Source: an uncultured Halanaerobiales bacterium
GTDB taxonomy: Bacteria > Bacillota > Halanaerobiia > Halanaerobiales > M55B127
Reading direction: 5' to 3'
NCBI GenBank assembly: GCA_964642575.1
Contig: CAZXRH010000001.1
Span: 1-51,875, forward strand
Length of the DNA: 51,875 nt
The notes beneath the pieces were generated by a model. It was given only the letters and a program-made list of their open reading frames with translations, was not told the DNA's origin and did not search any database. Positions 27,243-34,830 of the stretch are shown here, in pieces (position 1 is the stretch's first letter; each line of letters begins with the position of its first letter). The position numbers were made by a program, and so were the translations under genes.

Positions 27243-28568
27243 TTGATTAAATTGAAGATGATAGATGAATTAGTCAATTCAATAGAAAAAGAACTAATCG
27301 AGTTAAGAAGAAAGTTTCATAAACACCCTGAAGTAGGCTGGTTGGAATTTTATACTACTGTTGAAATCATTAATTATCTTAAAGATTTAGGTTATGAGAT
27401 AAAAAAGACAGAAGAGTTTTTAAAAAGAGAGGTTAGGCAGGGTTTACCTAGAAAAGAAGAATATGAAAAAAGTTATCAAAGAGCTCTTAACTGGGGAACA
27501 GATCCTGGACTATTGGATGAAATCAAAGATGGGATGACCGGTGCCGCAGCTCTTTTAGATACAAAAAAGCAAGGACCTACTATTGCTTTTAGGTTTGATA
27601 TCGATGCAATTGGTAGTCAAGAAAGCAAAGAAAAAAGCCACAAACCGTTTAAAGAAAATTTTAGTTCTACTAACCCTAATGCAGTTCATAGCTGTGGACA
27701 TGATGGTCATATTGCAATTGGATTAGGTTTAGCTAAAATATTAAAAGAACTAGCAGAACAAGATAAATTAAGTGGGAAAATTATTTTAATTTTCCAGCCA
27801 GCCGAAGAAGGAGTAAGGGGTGGAAAAGCTGTAGCTGAAAGTGATGTTTTAAATAATGTTGATTACTTATTATCCGGCCATATCGGGATGAATATTGATG
27901 ATTCTAACAGTATTATCTGTGGAATAACTGGTTCGCTTTTTACCAAAAAGATTGATATTGAAATTGCTGGTCAACCATCTCATGCAGGTGGTGCGCCTGA
28001 AAAAGGTAGTAATGCCTTATTGGCCGCAAATAATTTCATTACCTCACTTTATTCTTTAAATCAGCATGGTGGTGGGATGACCCGAATCAACGTAGGTAAA
28101 ATGACAGCAGGGACCTACCGGAATTTAATTCCTGCTCAAGCTGAACTTGAAATGGAAATACGGGGTGAAAATGAAGAAGTAATCTCCTATTTAGATAAAA
28201 GGGTAAAAAAAGCGGCTAATGGAATAGAAAGCATTTATGATGTTCAGGTTAAGTTAAAAACGGTTGGAGAAGCAATTTCAGTGGAAAGTGATCAAGAGTT
28301 AATTAATATAGTCAATGAAGCTGCTCAAGATATTGAAGACATTGATAAAATTATAGATAAAAAGAGTCTACAAGGTTCGGAAGATGCTAGCTTTTTAATG
28401 GAAAAGGTAAAAAAACAGGGGGGTAAGTCCTGTTATATCAATTTTGGAACAAATTTAGCAGCTGGTCATCATCAAAATGATTTCGACTTTGACGAACAAG
28501 TATTAACTAGAGCTGTAAAAGTATATTTAAACTGTTTACAACAGTTGGGTAATATTGTAGTTCTTTAG
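27243..28568 (+). CDS. M20D-family amidohydrolase, second copy
   Basis: Motifs HSCGHDGH and QPAEEGVRGGK. The start is ambiguous among TTG 27243, TTG 27252 and ATG 27258; the RBS AGGAG lies at 27236-27240. Confidence 0.82.
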   Translation: MIKLKMIDELVNSIEKELIELRRKFHKHPEVGWLEFYTTVEIINYLKDLGYEIKKTEEFLKREVRQGLPRKEEYEKSYQRALNWGTDPGLLDEIKDGMTGAAALLDTKKQGPTIAFRFDIDAIGSQESKEKSHKPFKENFSSTNPNAVHSCGHDGHIAIGLGLAKILKELAEQDKLSGKIILIFQPAEEGVRGGKAVAESDVLNNVDYLLSGHIGMNIDDSNSIICGITGSLFTKKIDIEIAGQPSHAGGAPEKGSNALLAANNFITSLYSLNQHGGGMTRINVGKMTAGTYRNLIPAQAELEMEIRGENEEVISYLDKRVKKAANGIESIYDVQVKLKTVGEAISVESDQELINIVNEAAQDIEDIDKIIDKKSLQGSEDASFLMEKVKKQGGKSCYINFGTNLAAGHHQNDFDFDEQVLTRAVKVYLNCLQQLGNIVVL

Positions 28569-28635
28569 ATATTAAGCTAAATTTAAACTTATTTGTCAAC
28601 TCGTAGTCAGATATATTTAAATAGAAAATAATTTT

Positions 28636-28677
28636 AAATGCATGTATTCTAGATGAAGGGATACATGCATTTTTTTA
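28636..28677 (+). terminator. intrinsic terminator ending module B
   Basis: AAATGCATGTAT ... ATACATGCATTT stem followed by TTTTTT. Confidence 0.8.
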
Positions 28678-28801
28678 TAAAACATCTAAAATCTTTTATA
28701 TTTACGCGCAAATATTACAGAATTATGAATTATATTTATAATTTAAAAATTCAAACACTCACTAGATATTAAATAATAATAATTAAATCTTTCTTTTCTA
28801 T

Positions 28802-28868
28802 ATGTTAAATGATATAATAATGTTAATAAAACTTAACATATATAATTAAATTATGTTATATAATGTTA
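28802..28868. promoter_or_regulatory. array of five ATGTTA/TAACAT hexamers (candidate XRE operator sites)
   Basis: ATGTTA at 28802, 28820, 28853 and 28863, and an inverted copy TAACAT at 28834. Copies 2 and 3 form ATGTTAA-N6-TTAACAT. The array lies directly upstream of the HTH gene. Confidence 0.45.
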
Positions 28869-28895
28869 AAAATTATTTATATGGAGGTGTTTGTT

Positions 28896-30035
28896 TTGAA
28901 TATTGCCGAAATTATTGGTAGGAACTTAAAAGAAATACAAAAAGAATATGATTATAACCAAAAAGAGTTAGGTGAAATTATAGGTGTGACTCGCCAAACC
29001 ATGGCTAAATATATCAATGGTGAAAGAATATTAGATAGTGATAAACTCTATAAATTGGCTAAGCATTTTAATAAATCATTTGATTACTTTTTATCGTTAA
29101 ATGAAAGTAAGCAAGTTGCTTTTATGTTTAGAGCAGATGACCCAGCTAATAATTTTAATAAAGGTCTTAAAAAACAGATAAGTGAGCGTTTTAATTTATA
29201 TCATGATATTATTGAATTAAGTGAATTACCAATAAAAGACTATATACCTGAGGAATATAATTTAGATATTAAAGGGAAAAAATTGTCTTTTAAGGAAAAA
29301 CACGCAATTGCAAAAATAGCTGAAAAACAGAGAAGGTATATGGGAATAAATGATGCAATAAGTACAAATATTTTTAGCCTTTTTGAAGAAAACAATATAA
29401 ATGTAATAGCAGAAAAAATGGATAAATTAACATTGGATGCAGTTTCTGCCTATTCTCAAAATAAAGGTGCCTATGTTTTTATAAATGATAATGAAAATAT
29501 TCCAGAAGAGAGAAAAATTTTTTCATTAGTACATGAGCTGGGGCATCTTTTGTTACACAGAGATGAGTATGGTAAAGATTGGGATAACTTAAAATATACA
29601 AATTCAAGAATTAAAGATATTAGAGAAAAAGCTGCCGATTATTTTGCGATGAATTTTCTAATCCCACCAAAAGTATTAGATAATTTTGCCTATTATTTTG
29701 ATGGTTATGTGGATTTGGATTTAATTATTGATAAGAAAAAGGAATTTGGAGTAAGTGCAAAATGTTTAATAATGGCATTAAATGAAAATGGAATGATTGA
29801 AAGATCAACTTTGGGTTTTTTATATAAAAAATTACGGGAAAATTGTTTTGAAAAACAGGAACCGGAACCGATAGCATATTTACAAAAAAATGAAAAATTA
29901 TTTGCTTTAACCAAAAAGCTTTTAATACAAGGAAAGCTTACTACAAATAAGGCTGCAGAAATATTAGACATATCACTAAAAGAGATGAGGGAGCTCTTAA
30001 AAAGGTGGAAAAATTTTGAATATAAAAAGAATTAA
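28896..30035 (+). CDS. XRE-family HTH + ImmA/IrrE (M78-like) zinc-peptidase fusion with a C-terminal UPF0175-like antitoxin-type segment
   Basis: N-terminal HTH NQKELGEIIGVTRQTMAKYINGE. HEXXH motif in SLVHELGHLLLH. C-terminal segment GKLTTNKAAEILDISLKEMRELLKRW. TTG 28896 lies 8 nt after GGAGG. The ORF-track start is 28863. Confidence 0.75.
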   Translation: MNIAEIIGRNLKEIQKEYDYNQKELGEIIGVTRQTMAKYINGERILDSDKLYKLAKHFNKSFDYFLSLNESKQVAFMFRADDPANNFNKGLKKQISERFNLYHDIIELSELPIKDYIPEEYNLDIKGKKLSFKEKHAIAKIAEKQRRYMGINDAISTNIFSLFEENNINVIAEKMDKLTLDAVSAYSQNKGAYVFINDNENIPEERKIFSLVHELGHLLLHRDEYGKDWDNLKYTNSRIKDIREKAADYFAMNFLIPPKVLDNFAYYFDGYVDLDLIIDKKKEFGVSAKCLIMALNENGMIERSTLGFLYKKLRENCFEKQEPEPIAYLQKNEKLFALTKKLLIQGKLTTNKAAEILDISLKEMRELLKRWKNFEYKKN

Positions 30036-30561
30036 GAGCTTGAATAATAAAAAAGTAGCAATTGACAACAATGTTTTAATAGATTTACAAGAAATGTCTG
30101 CTGCCTTAAACACTAATTTTATGAAATTATTAAATCACTTATTTAATGATATATTCATTCCTATTCCAATTTTAGAAGATGAAATTATCAGCTCGCGTAA
30201 TGGATTAAATTATATGGAAGGAATTTTTTCTACTGAAGAGGGATACCGATTATATAATAAAATAAGCAACCAGAAACATGCAAAGATGTTATCAGATTAT
30301 GATATACATTTAGTAGTTTTAGCTGAAGAGAAAAATTTATTGGTAATTAGTAATGATAAACCAATTAGAAATATTTGTAATGATTATAATATTGAAATAA
30401 CGGGAACTATTGGTATTATAGTTTCGCTTTTTGAAAATGATATAATAACTAATAAACTACTAGAAACAGCTTTTCAATTTCTATTTTCTTCAAAGTCGAG
30501 TTGTTATCTTGATAATGATTTAAAAGATAAAATAAAACAAGAATATTCTCTTGATTTGTAA
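30016..30561 (+). CDS. PIN-domain protein (DUF3368-like), putative toxin
   Basis: Motifs VAIDNNVLIDL (first acidic residue), LLVISNDKPIRN, and the GTIGIIVSLF tail typical of DUF3368-type PINs. TTG follows AGGTGGA. It overlaps the upstream gene by 20 nt. Confidence 0.6.
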   Translation: MNIKRIKSLNNKKVAIDNNVLIDLQEMSAALNTNFMKLLNHLFNDIFIPIPILEDEIISSRNGLNYMEGIFSTEEGYRLYNKISNQKHAKMLSDYDIHLVVLAEEKNLLVISNDKPIRNICNDYNIEITGTIGIIVSLFENDIITNKLLETAFQFLFSSKSSCYLDNDLKDKIKQEYSLDL

Positions 30562-30572
30562 ATATATTATTG

Positions 30573-30614
30573 ATAGTCCTCTTTTAACTTTGAAAAGAGG
30601 ACTATAATTTTTTT
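30573..30614 (+). terminator. intrinsic terminator after the PIN gene
   Basis: ATAGTCCTCTTTT / AAAAGAGGACTAT 13-bp stem, then TTTTTTT. Confidence 0.8.
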
Positions 30615-30692
30615 ATGTAAAAAAGGAGCATTTACGTCTTTGTATAAATATTTTAATATAAAGTCTTAAATAAAACATAAAGGAAGATATCA

Positions 30693-31952
30693 ATGCTTTT
30701 AAAATCCAAAAAGGATTTCATTATTATTATCTTGTTAATAATCCTTTCATTAACTTCATATTCCTATTCAGTCAGCAGCCAAGTTAGCGAAAAAGAAAAA
30801 GTAGCGGTAATTAATCGCTGGCATTATGTACTTTTAGGTTCACAAGATATGAAATTATTTCCTTCAATCATTACTGCTAATATGATCGACCCAGCCACAA
30901 GAGAAATATTAGATTTAATTAGTGTTAATCAATTAAACAATGATCGGCAAATATATCAGTTTAGTAAATGGGTCCATGATCATTTTACCCATACGCAGGG
31001 TTTATCAATCTTTAAAAATGAAGTTGGTAAAGATCCCTGGGGAGCTGTTAGAGGGACTCCGCTCTATAAGAAATTGATTGCTAGTGAGATGAGAGCAATG
31101 CACATTTATTCTAATAAAAGTATGACAGGCAAATGCGGTTCCTTAGTAAATGAGATTGTCAGTATGTTTAGATTATTAGGAGTACATTCTAATAATACTG
31201 CAATATTTAGAATAAAAGGACACAGTTTTGGCTTAGTAAAGATAGAAGAGAAACTTTATTTAATAAATAATAATAGGATTTATTCGGTAAACCAAAAAAT
31301 CTTAGACTGGATTTTAGAAAAAAATTATTTGGGCTTACATAATGATCGAGTTTCTGTCAAAAAAGAATTTAAATTAAAGGAAGAAACGCTTTATGAGCCT
31401 GGGTTTTTAATTGAGAATATTTTTAAAGAAGAGAAGTGGAATTTATCTAATTATACTCTGATTAAAACAGACATCACCAATTATGATATTAGTAATCCGG
31501 AAGAGTTATTTCAAAATGAAATATTTCAAGAAAATAAATATTTAAAACTAGCCCAATACGCCTATCAGAGTTTATATATTCCAGACCCCGAAATCTATTT
31601 AAAGGCATCAACTAAAGGACCGCATTTAAATAAATTAGCTGAGGATTTAAATGATTTAGAAGATATTTTCAACTGGCTGCAGGAGAATATAGAAAATAAG
31701 TCGATTTTTAAATTTGATGATGATAGAATAATGACAGCTGAGCAGGTGATTGTTTTTAAAAAAGGTGGCATCAACGACCAGGGATTATTAATTGCTTCCC
31801 TATTAAAACAATGGGGCTATAACCCCAAACTATTAATTACATTTGGAAATAGTTTTATTGAGTATGAAAATGGAATAATAGATGTTAAAAACAAAAAATT
31901 AATTGAAGAAATTGGTAATGTGGAGATACAATATAAACTTCAAGCAGATTAG
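30693..31952 (+). CDS. secreted transglutaminase-like (papain-fold) protein, apparent tandem module
   Basis: Signal peptide. YQFSKWVHDHFTH followed by MTGKCGSLVNEIVSMFRLLGV..IKGHSFGLV resembles the transglutaminase-like Cys/His core. A C-terminal repeat, IFNWLQENI..GINDQGLLIASLLKQWGY, lacks the Cys. Confidence 0.5.
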   Translation: MLLKSKKDFIIIILLIILSLTSYSYSVSSQVSEKEKVAVINRWHYVLLGSQDMKLFPSIITANMIDPATREILDLISVNQLNNDRQIYQFSKWVHDHFTHTQGLSIFKNEVGKDPWGAVRGTPLYKKLIASEMRAMHIYSNKSMTGKCGSLVNEIVSMFRLLGVHSNNTAIFRIKGHSFGLVKIEEKLYLINNNRIYSVNQKILDWILEKNYLGLHNDRVSVKKEFKLKEETLYEPGFLIENIFKEEKWNLSNYTLIKTDITNYDISNPEELFQNEIFQENKYLKLAQYAYQSLYIPDPEIYLKASTKGPHLNKLAEDLNDLEDIFNWLQENIENKSIFKFDDDRIMTAEQVIVFKKGGINDQGLLIASLLKQWGYNPKLLITFGNSFIEYENGIIDVKNKKLIEEIGNVEIQYKLQAD

Positions 31953-31982
31953 TAAATTATCAAATTAAAATGAGGTGAAATA

Positions 31983-33503
31983 ATGAGCTGTTTTAAAAAT
32001 AATAAATTGTTGTTGAATTTATCAATTATATTACTCATTTTATCTTTTAACAATGTTGAAGCTCTCACTATCAAAAATGAACTACCAGATGATATATTAA
32101 ATCAATTAACTCAAGAAAAAAGAAGCAAATTAAAGTCACTAACTGATCTAAAAGACAAATTTCAAAATAAATTATATAAGTTTAATAATTTAGATGAACA
32201 GCTTCCTAGAGATTCCATAAAGATCACGCGGGCTGAAAAAAAGCCCGGTCTGATATCTGTAAAAAAAGCAGTTGATGATGTAAACCATATGTTTAAACTG
32301 CTTAAATATGGTTATTCAGGTTATCAATACTTTGGTGGAGACGAAAAATTTATTCCTGTTAAAAAACAAATCATTAATACTTTAGATGACCGGGATATCT
32401 TTAATTATATTACGACAAAAAGATTTATAAAAATTTTAAAAAACGAACTATCTTTTATCCAAGACTTACACTTTTCAATAGATAATGAAAGTGTGGGTAA
32501 TAGATATCAATATTATATGTCATATGCTTATGAGTTTAGAAAAGATGAAAATGGCTTTTATACAAATTTAGATGAGGAAAAGGCTTATCTAAAGGAAATT
32601 AAAGGGTCAAAATTAGATAAATTAATTAAACCTTCCTTAAACGAAGAAGGTGAAATTATATATAGGTTAGGGACAGTCATTAATAACAAAGTTGGCAAAA
32701 CAGTGGAATTGAAGGCAAAATTACAAGTGGGAAATAAACTTATTGATAAAAGGATTATGCTGACTAGACCACAAAGAGAGTATTTCCAAAAGAAATCCCC
32801 TTATAATAAATATAAAAATGAGGGTTTTACCATTATTGAACACCGAACTGCCAGTGCTAATGAAGCTAATCGGGATCAATTAAAGCGATTAGCAGAAGAA
32901 GCTAAAGATTTAAAGGACAAAAAACATCTAATTATAGACTTACGAGGAAATTCAGGGGGAGCAGATACCTATGCTTCTGATTGGGTTGAAAATTTTACCG
33001 GAGTAGAACCTGGTGAAGGAATTATAGAAAGCAGCCTTGTGACTGATACAGCCAATAGATTATTACTAAACAGCTTTAATCAATATTATGGACTGTCATA
33101 TGATGAGCTTGAGCCTGAATATAAAAAGTTGTTTAAAAAAACCGAAAGTGGTTGGACTAATATCAAATATCATGAATATAAGGTAATAGAGAACAAAACA
33201 TTAATTATTGTCTTAATTGATAATGGAGTGGCATCAGCTGGTGAAAGTTTTGTAAATTATTTAAATCAAATGGAGAATGTGATATTAATCGGGACTAATA
33301 CAGCCGGACTTTTAGGGTTTGGAAACATGGGAATGTGCAATTTACCAAATTCAAATGTACAACTTTCTATAAGTAAAACTATTTCTCTACCACCTGATTT
33401 AACTTCAAGAGAAGGTAGAGGATATTATCCTGATTTTTGGATAGAACCCGATAAAGCATTAACAACTGTAGTGAGCTTTATCAATAATTATTTCAAAAAC
33501 TAA
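31983..33503 (+). CDS. secreted peptidase S41 family protein
   Basis: Signal peptide. The motif HLIIDLRGNSGG is typical of S41 (tail-specific protease-like) enzymes. GAGGTGA RBS. Confidence 0.7.
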   Translation: MSCFKNNKLLLNLSIILLILSFNNVEALTIKNELPDDILNQLTQEKRSKLKSLTDLKDKFQNKLYKFNNLDEQLPRDSIKITRAEKKPGLISVKKAVDDVNHMFKLLKYGYSGYQYFGGDEKFIPVKKQIINTLDDRDIFNYITTKRFIKILKNELSFIQDLHFSIDNESVGNRYQYYMSYAYEFRKDENGFYTNLDEEKAYLKEIKGSKLDKLIKPSLNEEGEIIYRLGTVINNKVGKTVELKAKLQVGNKLIDKRIMLTRPQREYFQKKSPYNKYKNEGFTIIEHRTASANEANRDQLKRLAEEAKDLKDKKHLIIDLRGNSGGADTYASDWVENFTGVEPGEGIIESSLVTDTANRLLLNSFNQYYGLSYDELEPEYKKLFKKTESGWTNIKYHEYKVIENKTLIIVLIDNGVASAGESFVNYLNQMENVILIGTNTAGLLGFGNMGMCNLPNSNVQLSISKTISLPPDLTSREGRGYYPDFWIEPDKALTTVVSFINNYFKN

Positions 33504-33596
33504 ATTATACTCATAAGATCCGATATCATTTTATTGTTAAAAAATTTACAATAAATTTAAGCTAAAGTAACTATATAAGAAATATAAATATAAAAT

Positions 33597-33625
33597 ACCC
33601 ACCTCAATTAAGAGGTGGGTTTTAT
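33597..33625. terminator. hairpin terminator, likely bidirectional (S41 gene on +, small ORF on -)
   Basis: ACCCACCTC-aattaa-GAGGTGGGT followed by TTTT on the + strand and flanked by an A/T run on the other side. Confidence 0.7.
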
Positions 33626-33651
33626 AATTAGTTCTATATTTTTTTAACTAG

Positions 33652-33798
33652 TTACCTGATAAAAAAGTCAAAGGGGTATGAATATTCTTCTTTTGTACAG
33701 AGACCTTTTTCTCGTTTATAATCTGGACACTTCTCTTTTTCTTTGCCATACGCTTCGGCTGTTGTCATAAAAGGACTGTAATATTCTCTATCTTTCAT
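33652..33798 (-). CDS. small ORF-1, 48 aa, Cys-containing basic protein of unknown function (paralog of 44063..44209)
   Basis: Below the ORF-track size cutoff. The minus strand reads AAGGAGGG-ttact-ATG. Translation: MKDREYYSPFMTTAEAYGKEKEKCPDYKREKGLCTKEEYSYPFDFFIR. A second copy of identical length lies 10 kb away. Confidence 0.6.
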   Translation of the reverse strand: MKDREYYSPFMTTAEAYGKEKEKCPDYKREKGLCTKEEYSYPFDFFIR

Positions 33799-33846
33799 AG
33801 TAACCCTCCTTATTCAGTACGGGTTTTCACTTAATTTCATTGTACA

Positions 33847-33875
33847 TTTATATAATAACTCATTTTAACAAACAA
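33847..33875 (-). promoter_or_regulatory. candidate sigma-A promoter for small ORF-1
   Basis: Minus strand reads TTGTTT-17 nt-TATAAA. The -35 element is weak. Confidence 0.3.
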
Positions 33876-34009
33876 TAATAGTAGGTATTTTACTAAATTC
33901 TTAAACTTCTATTTGGAGAGTTTAACTAATTGATAAATGACTAGATTATGTAGTTAATCTTTAAATAGAAAAAATATTAAGAAAATGAGCACAATTAACC
34001 ATTATTTTA

Positions 34010-34062
34010 TTGACAAATATTATTTGTTTTGATAATATTTAATTGTATAGACAACTAGTTGT
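34010..34062 (+). promoter_or_regulatory. sigma-A promoter plus operator for the GntR gene
   Basis: TTGACA (34010-15), 17 nt, TAATAT (34033-38) with an upstream TG (extended -10). Directly downstream lie GTATAGAC (34045-52, the GT-N-TA-N-AC core) and the perfect 12-bp palindrome ACAACTAGTTGT (34051-62). Confidence 0.65.
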
Positions 34063-34077
34063 GTAGGGGTGAAACAG

Positions 34078-34830
34078 ATGGAAAAAATTTTGAACAGTAT
34101 TAATATTAACAAGGAATCGGTTATTCCAATTTATCATCAGATTAAAGAACAATTACAAAATTTAATTGATAGGGGTATTATTGAAAATGGAGATCGCATT
34201 CCTTCCGAAAATGAACTAAGCTCACATTTTGACATTTCCAGAATGACAGCTCGTAATGCAGTGGAAGAACTGGTCAAACAAGGGATTGTTAAAAGAGAAA
34301 GAGGTAAAGGATCAATAGTTTTTCAACCAAAAATAGACCAATCTTTAATGAAAATTCAGAGTTTTACTAAAGCAATGAATGAAAAAGGATATACTATAAG
34401 AGCTGATTTATTAGACTTTGAAGTTGGAACAAGTAGTACAGAAATACAAAAACGGCTTAAATTAGAAGATAATGATAAGATAATAAGGTTATCCCGCATA
34501 CGTTGTATCGAAAATACTCCAGTTGGACTTCAATATTCTTATTTACCTTTTAAATTAACTGAACCACTTATCCAACACAAAAACAAATTAGAAAACACTT
34601 CTTTATATACCTTATTAAGAGAGTATTGTTCGATTAACCCTACTAAAACTCATGAGACCTTAGAAATTAAAAAGGCAACTGCTAAACAAAATAAACTTTT
34701 AAATATACCTCTCAATGAACCCTTGTTTTATGTCGAAGCGCTGGCAGAATGTGAAAAAGGACCAATGGAATATGTAGAATCATATTATCGATCAGATGTA
34801 TTTAAGTTCCATATTAAATCCGAATTATAA
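34078..34830 (+). CDS. GntR-family transcriptional regulator, HutC subfamily (wHTH + UTRA)
   Basis: Motifs PIYHQIKEQLQNLIDRGIIENGDRIPSENELSSHFDISRMTARNAVEELVKQGIVKRERGKGSIV, with a UTRA-sized C-terminal domain. ATG 34078 lies 6 nt after AGGGGTGA. The ORF-track start is 34069. Confidence 0.88.
   Translation: MEKILNSININKESVIPIYHQIKEQLQNLIDRGIIENGDRIPSENELSSHFDISRMTARNAVEELVKQGIVKRERGKGSIVFQPKIDQSLMKIQSFTKAMNEKGYTIRADLLDFEVGTSSTEIQKRLKLEDNDKIIRLSRIRCIENTPVGLQYSYLPFKLTEPLIQHKNKLENTSLYTLLREYCSINPTKTHETLEIKKATAKQNKLLNIPLNEPLFYVEALAECEKGPMEYVESYYRSDVFKFHIKSEL

What the first reader, a model, noticed from the sequence alone, without database searches (positions are those of the whole stretch)
28896..30561. 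XRE-HTH / ImmA-IrrE protease / UPF0175-like antitoxin fusion overlapping a DUF3368-type PIN gene
The 379-aa protein combines three parts: an N-terminal XRE HTH, an HEXXH metalloprotease core (VHELGHLLLH, ImmA/IrrE type), and a C-terminal segment GKLTTNKAAEILDISLKEMRELLKRW. That segment looks like the UPF0175 antitoxin motif, the usual partner of DUF3368 PIN toxins. The next gene overlaps by 20 nt and encodes exactly such a PIN (VAIDNNVLIDL ... GTIGIIVSLF). ImmA/IrrE proteases normally cleave their cognate repressor on a stress or phage signal. Fusing repressor, protease and antitoxin into one chain suggests a self-cleaving switch that could release a PIN RNase. That would be a compact stress-triggered or phage-triggered toxin module. 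The fusion is unusual compared with the separate two- or three-gene versions.
Basis: partly seen in the sequence, partly recalled or inferred. Interest (0 to 1): 0.6.

Follow-up and report, generated by a model that had tools for sequence, protein, structure and literature searches.

The report
Protease-antitoxin and PIN toxin pair
This is a real two-gene toxin-antitoxin (probably anti-phage) cassette, in which a DNA-binding zinc-protease "antitoxin" sits just ahead of a PIN nuclease "toxin"; the kind has been described since 2009, so it is a well-preserved new member and not a new system.

Summary
Observation confirmed. Gene A (28896-30035, 379 aa) has three parts: an XRE helix-turn-helix (HTH), an intact M78 ImmA/IrrE peptidase core (H213, E214, H217, E244), and a C-terminal three-helix HTH tail. 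It overlaps gene B (30016-30561, 181 aa) by 20 nt.

Gene B has a confident PIN fold and keeps all four catalytic acidic residues. At family level it belongs to the COG2405/DUF3368 group.

The tail matches only the HTH core of UPF0175 and stays below Pfam's cut-off. The match is consistent and goes with the partner: 28 of 61 tails from PIN-linked relatives hit UPF0175, against 0 of 22 control tails.

The pair is a self-contained operon with repeated TGTTAA sites at its promoter and its own terminator. It lies in an AT-rich block and is absent from same-genus genomes.

The architecture is not unusual. Gene A matches PADLOC's models of RmrA, the antitoxin of the RosmerTA defence system, over its full length (2e-35). 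Fused Xre-COG2856 genes next to PIN genes were described in 2009, and the COG2405 pairing in 2017. Forty of the 80 best related loci, from many phyla, share the layout.

The best reading is a Rosmer-type type II toxin-antitoxin or abortive-infection module. Self-cleavage is untested. The only mildly new detail is the antitoxin-like tail.

The parts
28636..28672 (+). Intrinsic-terminator-like hairpin that ends the upstream (M20 peptidase) transcription unit and marks the left edge of the cassette
   Evidence: stem of 15 pairs followed by a T run. Two terminator-like sites were found in the region against 0.4 expected.
28796..28882 (+). Promoter and operator region. It holds an extended -10 (TGATATAAT, 28810-28818). 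It also holds four TGTTAA/TTAACA half-sites at 28803-28808, 28821-28826, 28833-28838 (inverted) and 28864-28869, including the palindrome ATGTTAA-N6-TTAACAT at 28820-28839. A fifth, variant copy (ATGTTAT) lies at 28853-28859.
   Evidence: ATGTTAA occurs 22 times in the 51.9-kb window, and 4 of those lie within 68 bp here. Inverted repeats I2 and I4. TGTTAA is found 20 times, against 1.0 expected, in the 130 bp upstream of 10 homologous genes. The -10 element was read directly from the sequence. The generic promoter scan was not above chance.
28896..30035 (+). Gene A: 379-aa RmrA-like repressor/antitoxin made of XRE HTH, M78 peptidase, a helical subdomain, a linker and an HTH tail
   Evidence: PADLOC RmrA 2e-35 over residues 5-350, and other RmrA models reach residue 370. 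NCBIfam spr1629-family repressor/antitoxin 3e-29 over residues 7-369, below its equivalog cut-off. PHROG 2439, 3e-49. AlphaFold2 pLDDT 85.5. Best folds are CapP, IrrE and PprI.
28926..29090 (+). XRE-type HTH domain of A (residues 11-65)
   Evidence: Pfam HTH_3, 7e-12. PDB sequence hits to the ICEBs1 ImmR-like Xre regulator and PezA. Foldseek hits to P22 c2, C.BclI and SinR.
29385..29777 (+). M78 (ImmA/IrrE, COG2856) metallopeptidase domain of A (residues 164-294). The HEXXH motif is at 29532-29546 and the third zinc ligand E244 at 29625-29627.
   Evidence: Pfam PF06114, 2.4e-16. H213, E214 and E244 are invariant and H217 is kept in 37 of 38 sequences in alignment A2.
29859..29864 (+). Invariant E322-P323 in the loop (residues 316-332) between the peptidase module and the tail
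   Evidence: E in 38 of 38 and P in 37 of 38 sequences. The loop is modelled with pLDDT about 90. Its role is unknown.
29892..30026 (+). C-terminal three-helix HTH tail of A (residues 333-377), resembling the UPF0175 core
   Evidence: Helices 333-344, 350-357 and 361-377 with pLDDT above 90. The isolated tail hits UPF0175 at 1.3e-4 and 22 bits; 28 of 61 tails hit UPF0175. hhalign 94%, P 1e-7. It is present in 40 of 40 PIN-partnered relatives and in 0 of 23 toxin-first relatives.
30016..30561 (+). Gene B: 181-aa PIN-fold nuclease of the COG2405/DUF3368 group (PADLOC PDC-S70-like), the presumed toxin. Catalytic positions are D17 (30064-30066), E56 (30181-30183), D96 (30301-30303) and D114 (30355-30357). 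The GTxG motif spans residues 130-133.
   Evidence: The four acidic positions are kept in 44-47 of the 47 family members.
30573..30605 (+). Intrinsic terminator of the bicistronic operon
   Evidence: stem of 13 pairs followed by AATTTTTTTA.

Best explanation
A self-contained, horizontally acquired, Rosmer-type type II toxin-antitoxin cassette that probably serves abortive-infection phage defence or addiction.

Gene B is a metal-dependent PIN ribonuclease of the COG2405/DUF3368 group and acts as the toxin.

Gene A is a modular antitoxin and regulator with three proposed roles:
1. Its N-terminal XRE HTH binds the TGTTAA/TTAACA repeats that overlap the promoter and represses the operon. This is inferred from conserved sites.
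2. Its C-terminal tail, which resembles the UPF0175 antitoxin core, is the partner-specific module that holds the PIN inactive by direct binding. This is inferred from homology and strict co-occurrence.
3. Its intact M78 peptidase domain is the trigger-responsive element. Its relatives ImmA, IrrE and CapP respond to DNA damage, ssDNA or zinc. On a signal it would inactivate the repressor or neutraliser function, in cis or in trans, and free the nuclease to arrest growth. This step is speculative and has not been shown for any fused member.

What is shown here: the domains, the folds, the conserved catalytic residues, the operon structure, conservation of the gene pair across phyla, patchy distribution, and repeated loss of the toxin gene. 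Toxicity, neutralisation, the trigger and any cleavage are all inferred.
For: - Domain and family matches.
- PIN fold with D17, E56, D96 and D/E114 conserved.
- Peptidase ligands invariant.
- 40 of the 80 best related loci, from many phyla, have the PIN directly downstream, mostly overlapping or within a few bases.
- The profile of B's family detects canonical COG2405 PINs that sit downstream of true UPF0175 genes, at 1e-9 to 1e-18.
- The tail resembles UPF0175: hhalign 94%, P 1e-7, against 77%, P 2e-5 for the XRE control. 28 of 61 tails hit UPF0175, while the next family is hit by 4. 0 of 22 control tails from toxin-first RmrA-like proteins hit it.
- TGTTAA is found 20 times against 1.0 expected upstream of homologues.
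- Terminators lie on both sides.
- GC is 22-28% against 34-38% in the upstream flank.
- No close copy exists in 12 same-genus genomes, but close copies exist in three other families of the order.
- A copy lies on a Niallia plasmid.
- The PIN gene was deleted three times independently with gene A left intact, and further truncated remnants exist.
- Literature: RmrA antitoxins neutralise diverse toxins and defend against phage (10.1101/2022.05.11.491447; PMC10440598). The spr1629 homologue is a proven antitoxin (PMC12795458). A PDC-S70 PIN protected E. coli B against T4, T5 and T7 (10.1101/2024.09.26.614923).
Against: - There is no experimental evidence on this family's toxicity, binding or cleavage.
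- The tail covers only positions 22-56 of the 75-position UPF0175 profile. It lacks UPF0175's N-terminal strand and acidic C-terminal segment, and it is not known which part of UPF0175 binds PIN.
- No tail reaches Pfam's cut-off. The same UPF0175 model gives 20-22-bit hits to unrelated sigma-70-region-4-like HTH proteins.
- Co-occurrence of tail and PIN is confounded by phylogeny, because the two groups of A proteins are different clades.
- Gene A stays intact after PIN loss in several genomes, so it may have a role apart from neutralisation.
- The cassette is not in a recognisable defence island, and no phage in the collection carries the PIN.
Confidence: 0.75

Rival explanations
1. Regulator-only model (the 2009 'three-component' idea). 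A is a stress-responsive repressor-protease that controls only transcription of the PIN gene. It cleaves its own or another Xre domain to derepress the operon. There is no protein-protein neutralisation, and the C-terminal HTH is a second DNA-binding or dimerisation element.
For: Conserved operator-like repeats at the promoter. The LexA analogy and the ImmA/ImmR, IrrE/DdrO and CapP/CapH precedents (PMC2701414; fold hits). The tail is an HTH, and UPF0175 itself was predicted to bind DNA (PMC2701414). A survives as an intact gene after PIN loss.
Against: The tail type tracks the toxin type: 28 of 61 against 0 of 22. RmrA and spr1629 relatives neutralise toxins expressed in trans from foreign promoters (PMC10440598; PMC12795458), which transcriptional control alone does not explain. 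Translational coupling by a 20-nt overlap makes toxin together with A at all times.
Confidence: 0.12
2. Enzymatic antitoxin model. The M78 peptidase of A keeps the cell safe by degrading B continuously, or it cleaves a phage protein. The tail only recruits the substrate.
For: The catalytic residues are strictly conserved. One antitoxin family is paired with many unrelated toxins in Rosmer systems (PMC10440598). The spr1629 antitoxin depends on ClpX, which hints at proteolysis-linked control (PMC12795458).
Against: No cleavage of any toxin by an RmrA-like protein has been reported in the papers read. Known M78 relatives cleave Xre-type repressors, not effectors. A toxin-specific tail fits stoichiometric binding at least as well.
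Confidence: 0.08
3. Not a toxin-antitoxin pair. B is a benign, regulated RNA-processing PIN nuclease (like HARP or Nob1) and A is an ordinary stress regulator.
For: The best structural matches include the RNA-free RNase P HARP and Nob1. Toxicity has not been tested.
Against: Distribution is patchy, with no close copy in same-genus genomes. The composition is AT-rich and foreign-looking. A copy lies on a plasmid. The B gene was deleted repeatedly and independently. The layout is the classic overlapping antitoxin-then-toxin order. The sister clade of B is partnered with the UPF0175 antitoxin.
Confidence: 0.05

Closest known systems
RosmerTA (RmrT/RmrA; Millman et al. 2022; Gordonia phage Kita RmrTA, Ernits et al. 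2023) and RipAB (spr1630/spr1629 of S. pneumoniae, PMC12795458)
   Same: The antitoxin is an XRE HTH fused to an ImmA-type Zn-peptidase of about 370-400 aa. A matches PADLOC RmrA models over its full length (2e-35) and the NCBIfam spr1629 family (3e-29). It is a two-gene operon with TA-like, patchy distribution.
   Different: The toxin here is a PIN nuclease, unrelated to the membrane-depolarising RmrT or the DnaN-targeting RipA. The gene order is antitoxin first. The C-terminal tail differs from that of toxin-first relatives. A scores far below the spr1629 equivalog cut-off (102 against 335 bits).
Xre-COG2856 (DUF955) fusion plus PIN 'three-component' TA systems (Makarova 2009, PMC2701414; Matelska 2017, PMC5499597, e.g. 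Geobacillus sp. Y412MC61 GYMC61_2169)
   Same: Exactly this layout: an HTH-DUF955 fusion gene directly upstream of a COG2405 (DUF3368) PIN gene.
   Different: In the passages I read, those papers do not report that the fusion protein ends in a UPF0175-like module. They remain computational predictions.
UPF0175 (COG2886) / COG2405 PIN two-gene VapBC-like TA pairs
   Same: B's family profile detects these PINs at 1e-9 to 1e-18. The tail of A aligns with the HTH core of UPF0175, sharing the motif hS-x-G/N-K/R-A-A-E-h-L.
   Different: The antitoxin here is not a free 85-95-aa protein. It is a roughly 45-residue core appended to a repressor-protease, without UPF0175's N-terminal strand and acidic C-terminus. 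The two PIN groups are separated by a branch with 100/98 support.
ImmR/ImmA (ICEBs1), DdrO/IrrE (Deinococcus), CapH/CapP (CBASS)
   Same: The same M78 fold and catalytic motif. CapP, IrrE and PprI are the best structural matches. Each system pairs an XRE repressor with a peptidase.
   Different: In those systems the repressor and the peptidase are separate proteins, and the output is gene induction, not release of an adjacent toxin.
PanA (Panacea) modular antitoxins with exchangeable neutralising domains (Ernits 2023)
   Same: The same proposed logic: a portable sensor/regulator core plus a toxin-specific neutralising module attached at one end.
   Different: The core domain is unrelated. Neutralisation by the tail has not been shown here.
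PADLOC candidate defence system PDC-S70 (single PIN gene)
   Same: B matches three PDC-S70 models (best 5.5e-8). One PDC-S70 representative reduced plating of T4, T5 and T7 100- to 1000-fold (10.1101/2024.09.26.614923).
   Different: PDC-S70 is defined as a single gene and is mostly archaeal (PMC12988326). Here the PIN is always paired with the A gene.

Membership tests
RosmerTA | Antitoxin with an M78/ImmA Zn-peptidase domain (HEXXH), usually with an N-terminal XRE HTH | tested here: met
   Pfam HTH_3 plus Peptidase_M78. Fourteen PADLOC RmrA models hit, the best at 2e-35. Catalytic residues are invariant.
RosmerTA | Adjacent toxin gene RmrT in the same operon | tested here: inconclusive
   An adjacent co-directional gene exists, but it matches PDC-S70 (PIN) and no RmrT model. 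The literature treats RmrT as a diverse set and notes PIN-like partners of the ImmA node (PMC10440598).
RosmerTA | Toxicity of the toxin, neutralisation by the antitoxin, and anti-phage activity | not testable with these tools
   These need expression and phage assays.
Xre-COG2856 + PIN TA (Makarova 2009 / Matelska 2017) | Fused HTH-COG2856 protein encoded next to, and on the same strand as, a PIN-like gene | tested here: met
   The same holds in 40 of 80 related loci.
PIN domain-like superfamily, COG2405/DUF3368 cluster | PIN fold | tested here: met
   AlphaFold2 pLDDT 94. Foldseek top hits are HARP, VapC4, VapC21, FitB and Nob1, with probability 1.0 and target-normalised TM-scores of 0.45-0.59 among the VapC-type hits.
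PIN domain-like superfamily, COG2405/DUF3368 cluster | Conserved acidic active-site residues | tested here: met
   D17 in 46/47 (the remaining row has a gap), E56 in 44/47, D96 in 47/47 and D/E114 in 47/47 sequences.
PIN domain-like superfamily, COG2405/DUF3368 cluster | Match to Pfam PF11848 (DUF3368) | tested here: inconclusive
   The window's own protein gives no hit at E <= 1, although the precomputed table lists PF11848 for it. 19 of 47 relatives hit it, the best at 8e-9. The family HMM finds UPF0175-linked COG2405 PINs at 1e-9 to 1e-18.
UPF0175 (PF03683, COG2886) antitoxin | Score at or above Pfam's gathering threshold (27.9 bits) over the 75-position profile | tested here: not met
   18.2 bits in the full protein and 22 bits for the isolated tail. 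Only profile positions 22-56 are covered.
UPF0175 (PF03683, COG2886) antitoxin | Remote homology of the HTH core, and genomic pairing with a COG2405 PIN | tested here: met
   hhalign 94%, P 1e-7, 41-46 columns. UPF0175 is the top Pfam family for 28 of 61 tails, while the next family is hit by 4. 0 of 22 control tails hit it. A PIN lies immediately downstream.
ImmA/IrrE (M78) anti-repressor proteases | HEXXH plus a downstream Glu zinc ligand, and the M78 fold | tested here: met
ImmA/IrrE (M78) anti-repressor proteases | Signal-dependent cleavage of a cognate XRE repressor | not testable with these tools
   No data. Self-cleavage of fused members is not reported in the papers read.

The most novel reading that the evidence does not exclude
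The HTH-peptidase core is a portable sensor/regulator, and toxin specificity in this superfamily is written in an exchangeable C-terminal module. Here that module is a captured UPF0175 antitoxin core that binds the COG2405 PIN. The peptidase fires the system by cutting its own chain at or near the invariant E322-P323 linker, which separates neutraliser, sensor and repressor in one event.
Probability: 0.25. Interest if true: 0.55.

Novelty: new member of a known kind. Interest (0 to 1): 0.3.

Why it matters
The mechanism of Rosmer-type systems is unknown. It is not known how one peptidase-containing antitoxin family controls many unrelated toxins, or what the peptidase is for. This PIN-linked subfamily gives a tractable case. 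The toxin has a predictable activity. The putative neutralising tail has a free-standing relative (UPF0175). The operator can be recognised in the sequence. Simple truncation and point-mutant experiments could therefore separate the repressor, sensor and neutraliser roles. As an annotation matter, the pair should be labelled an RmrA-like antitoxin with a COG2405 PIN toxin, not 'XRE family regulator' and 'hypothetical protein'.

Tried and rejected
- **DUF3368 for the window's PIN.** A direct Pfam scan gave no hit. The assignment rests on family-level evidence.
- **Sequence search of the PDB with B alone.** Only noise was returned. The profile search and the fold search were needed.
- **Solved UPF0175 structure or UPF0175-PIN complex.** None was found with the tail profile, so the binding surface of UPF0175 remains unknown.
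- **Three-gene intermediates** (peptidase gene, free UPF0175 gene, then PIN). No RmrA-like gene lies within 700 bp of the 15 strongest UPF0175 loci.
- **Generic sigma-70 promoter scan.** Not above chance, 20 sites against 18.4 expected. I read the -10 element by eye.
- **Rfam.** No RNA family in 28400-30800.
- **Phage collection.** No homologue of B.
- **AlphaFold2 model coordinates.** Not available to scripts. I could not check whether the E322-P323 linker lies in the peptidase cleft or how the tail packs.
- **Specificity caution.** I considered that the UPF0175 hit is generic HTH noise. The same Pfam model gives 20-22-bit hits to sigma-70-region-4-like proteins encoded just upstream of long ORFs (about 370-440 aa) that I did not identify. 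That is why I ran the family-wide and control scans.
Full report
**What is there.** The window is the whole of contig 1 of a 2.5-Mb, 297-contig Halanaerobiales genome (homologue names). Between two terminator-like hairpins (28636-28672 and 30573-30605) lie two co-directional ORFs. Gene A runs 28896-30035, starts with TTG after a GGAGG, and encodes 379 aa. Gene B runs 30016-30561, starts with TTG after a GGTGG, and encodes 181 aa. They overlap by 20 nt.

**Gene A.** Pfam finds HTH_3 (residues 11-65, 7e-12) and Peptidase_M78 (residues 164-294, 2.4e-16). Whole-length models exist for this architecture:
- PADLOC RmrA, the antitoxin of RosmerTA: 14 models hit, the best at 2e-35.
- NCBIfam 'spr1629 family repressor/antitoxin': 3e-29 over residues 7-369, well below its equivalog cut-off.
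- PHROG 2439: 3e-49.

In 38 homologues, H213, E214 and E244 are invariant and H217 is kept in 37 of 38, so the zinc site is intact. The AlphaFold2 model has pLDDT 85.5. It shows the HTH, the peptidase, a helical subdomain, a well-ordered loop with an invariant E322-P323, and a final three-helix bundle (residues 333-377, pLDDT above 90). The closest solved folds are CapP, IrrE and PprI, and phage or controller-protein HTHs for the N-terminus.

**Gene B.** On its own it gives only weak PIN hits and no DUF3368 hit in my scan. The precomputed table does list PF11848 for it and its relatives. An exhaustive HMMER search found 70 representative clusters. In an alignment of 47 of them, the four canonical PIN acidic positions are kept: D17 in 46/47 (the other row has a gap), E56 in 44/47, D96 in 47/47 and D/E114 in 47/47. 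An S-N-D/E motif and G-T-x-G are also conserved. Nineteen members hit DUF3368 and eight hit PIN. The family profile finds PIN structures in the PDB, including 2mdt, the COG2405 representative. The AlphaFold2 model has pLDDT 94. All its top PDB matches are PIN nucleases: HARP, VapC4, VapC21, FitB and Nob1. B also matches PADLOC's candidate defence gene PDC-S70 (5.5e-8).

Among the 80 best loci, 40 have a homologue of B immediately downstream, usually overlapping or a few bases away. They come from Bacillota, Cyanobacteriota, Patescibacteria, Spirochaetota, Acidobacteriota, Planctomycetota, Myxococcota, Pseudomonadota and other phyla. A second group of 23 loci has the other Rosmer-like layout, with an ORF of about 200 aa (180-290 aa by my size filter) just upstream of the A-like gene.

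**Is the C-terminus UPF0175-like?** In the full protein the hit is weak: 0.002, 18 bits, against a cut-off of 27.9. The same Pfam model also gives 20-22-bit hits to unrelated sigma-70-region-4-like HTH proteins. I therefore tested the question at family level.
1. I collected true UPF0175 genes from the phylum. Their downstream PINs are detected by B's family profile at 1e-9 to 1e-18, so B belongs with the PINs that normally pair with UPF0175.
2. Profile-profile comparison of the tail against UPF0175 gave 72% with close homologues only. With 86 diverse tails it gave 94% (P 1e-7, 41-46 columns). The XRE-HTH control gave 77% (P 2e-5). The shared motif is h-S/T-x-G/N-K/R-A-A-E-h-L, preceded by a helix L..L...hY/F.
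3. I scanned 61 isolated tails against all of Pfam. Twenty-eight hit UPF0175 (best 5e-5; the window's own tail 1.3e-4). The next family, Fis-type HTH_8, was hit by four.
4. Of 22 tails from the toxin-first relatives, none hit UPF0175. The tail HMM is present in 40 of 40 PIN-partnered relatives and 0 of 23 toxin-first relatives.
5. A tree of the PINs separates the 33 RmrA-partnered from the 10 UPF0175-partnered sequences by a single branch with 100/98 support.

I conclude that the tail is a remote relative of the UPF0175 HTH core (profile positions 22-56 of 75). It is not a member by Pfam's threshold, and it lacks UPF0175's N-terminal strand and acidic C-terminus. The link between tail type and toxin type is real but confounded by phylogeny.

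**Regulation.** Four TGTTAA/TTAACA copies lie within 68 bp just upstream of the ribosome-binding site, including the palindrome ATGTTAA-N6-TTAACAT right after an extended -10 (TGATATAAT). The 7-mer ATGTTAA occurs only 22 times in the 51.9-kb window. The same hexamer is enriched upstream of homologues in Halanaerobium, Geobacillus and others: 20 copies against 1.0 expected in ten loci, two of which are near-identical. This fits autorepression by an HTH of A. Which of the two HTHs binds is not known.

**Evolutionary behaviour.** The cassette has 22-28% GC, against 34-38% in the upstream flank, and sits in an AT-rich block that runs to about 34.5 kb. None of 12 same-genus genomes has a close copy. 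Close copies occur in three other families of the order, and a more distant copy lies on a 232-kb Niallia plasmid. In three of the closest relatives the PIN gene has been deleted. The breakpoints differ, leaving stubs of about 15, 33 and 35 codons, and gene A remains intact. Further truncated or missing PINs occur among more distant loci. Loss of the toxin gene with retention of the antitoxin is what toxin-antitoxin biology predicts.

**What is known.**
- Makarova et al. 2009 (PMC2701414) reported that over half of COG2856 domains are fused to Xre and that many fusions sit in operons with PIN or RelE toxins. They proposed a LexA-like protease-repressor.
- Matelska et al. 2017 (PMC5499597) listed COG2405 among PIN groups co-transcribed with HTH and DUF955. 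They cited a Geobacillus HTH-DUF955 gene upstream of a COG2405 gene, and noted that UPF0175 occurs only with COG2405.
- Millman et al. 2022 named RosmerTA.
- Ernits et al. 2023 (PMC10440598) confirmed an RmrA antitoxin, noted PIN-like partners of the ImmA node, and showed for Panacea antitoxins that appended domains can be the true neutralisers.
- RipAB (spr1630/spr1629) is a validated Rosmer pair (PMC12795458).
- A PDC-S70 PIN gave 100- to 1000-fold protection against T4, T5 and T7 (10.1101/2024.09.26.614923).

Earlier notes of this scan on other genomes reached the same classification. I treated them as leads only.

**Most likely mechanism.** A represses its own promoter, holds the PIN inactive through the UPF0175-like tail, and uses the peptidase as the trigger-sensitive element. 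Release of the PIN arrests growth, which would serve abortive infection or addiction.
- Shown here: the domains, the folds, the catalytic residues, the operon structure, conservation of the pair, and its mobility and decay pattern.
- Inferred: toxicity, direct binding through the tail (about even odds), the trigger, and any self-cleavage (about one in four).
- Rivals: transcription-only control, proteolytic removal of the toxin, or a benign RNase.

**Verdict.** The feature is real and well preserved, and it is a new member of a known kind. The antitoxin-like tail is a modest added detail that makes the family a convenient model for working out what the peptidase does in Rosmer-type systems.

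Noticed in passing
L002 (4100-4200), L118, L120 compared with L003 and window 30016-30561: In three of the closest relatives the PIN gene was deleted independently. The breakpoints differ and leave stubs of about 15, 33 and 35 codons, while the upstream RmrA-like gene stays intact. These are 'orphan antitoxin' alleles.
   Followed up: yes
L025, L028-L030, L035, L036, L038, L040, L049, L051-L053, L055, L059, L063, L066, L068-L072, L074, L078: A second group of RmrA-like genes has a partner ORF of about 200 aa (180-290 aa by my filter) ending at or overlapping their start (toxin-first layout). Their C-terminal tails are different and also look HTH-like (for example DIAKDLGIPLGEIEALIF), and none hits UPF0175.
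   Followed up: partly
L101, L102, L104, L107, L108: The Pfam UPF0175 model gives 20-22-bit hits to sigma-70-region-4-like HTH proteins encoded just upstream of long ORFs (about 370-440 aa) that I did not identify. Sub-threshold UPF0175 hits are therefore not specific on their own.
   Followed up: partly
L027 (759-2356 and 2980-4425): A Nitrospirales chromosome carries two tandem copies of the cassette. The first has an intact PIN and the second a truncated one.
   Followed up: no
window 28200-34500: An AT-rich block (22-30% GC against 34-38% on either side) extends beyond the cassette over the next two genes (30693-31952 and 31983-33503). The whole block may have been acquired together.
   Followed up: no
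L121 (NZ_CP095746.1 177302-178973): A plasmid-borne copy of the same pair in Niallia sp. Man26 is annotated only as 'XRE family transcriptional regulator' and 'hypothetical protein', with a 26-nt overlap.
   Followed up: partly
window 29859-29864 (A residues 322-323): An invariant Glu-Pro lies in an otherwise variable linker just before the tail and is modelled with high confidence. It could be a docking or cleavage site. I could not examine it without the model coordinates.
   Followed up: no
L018 (2928-5402): In a high-GC Acidobacteriota genome my ORF caller returned an 824-aa frame that ends in the same tail. This is probably an over-extended ORF and not a larger fusion.
   Followed up: no
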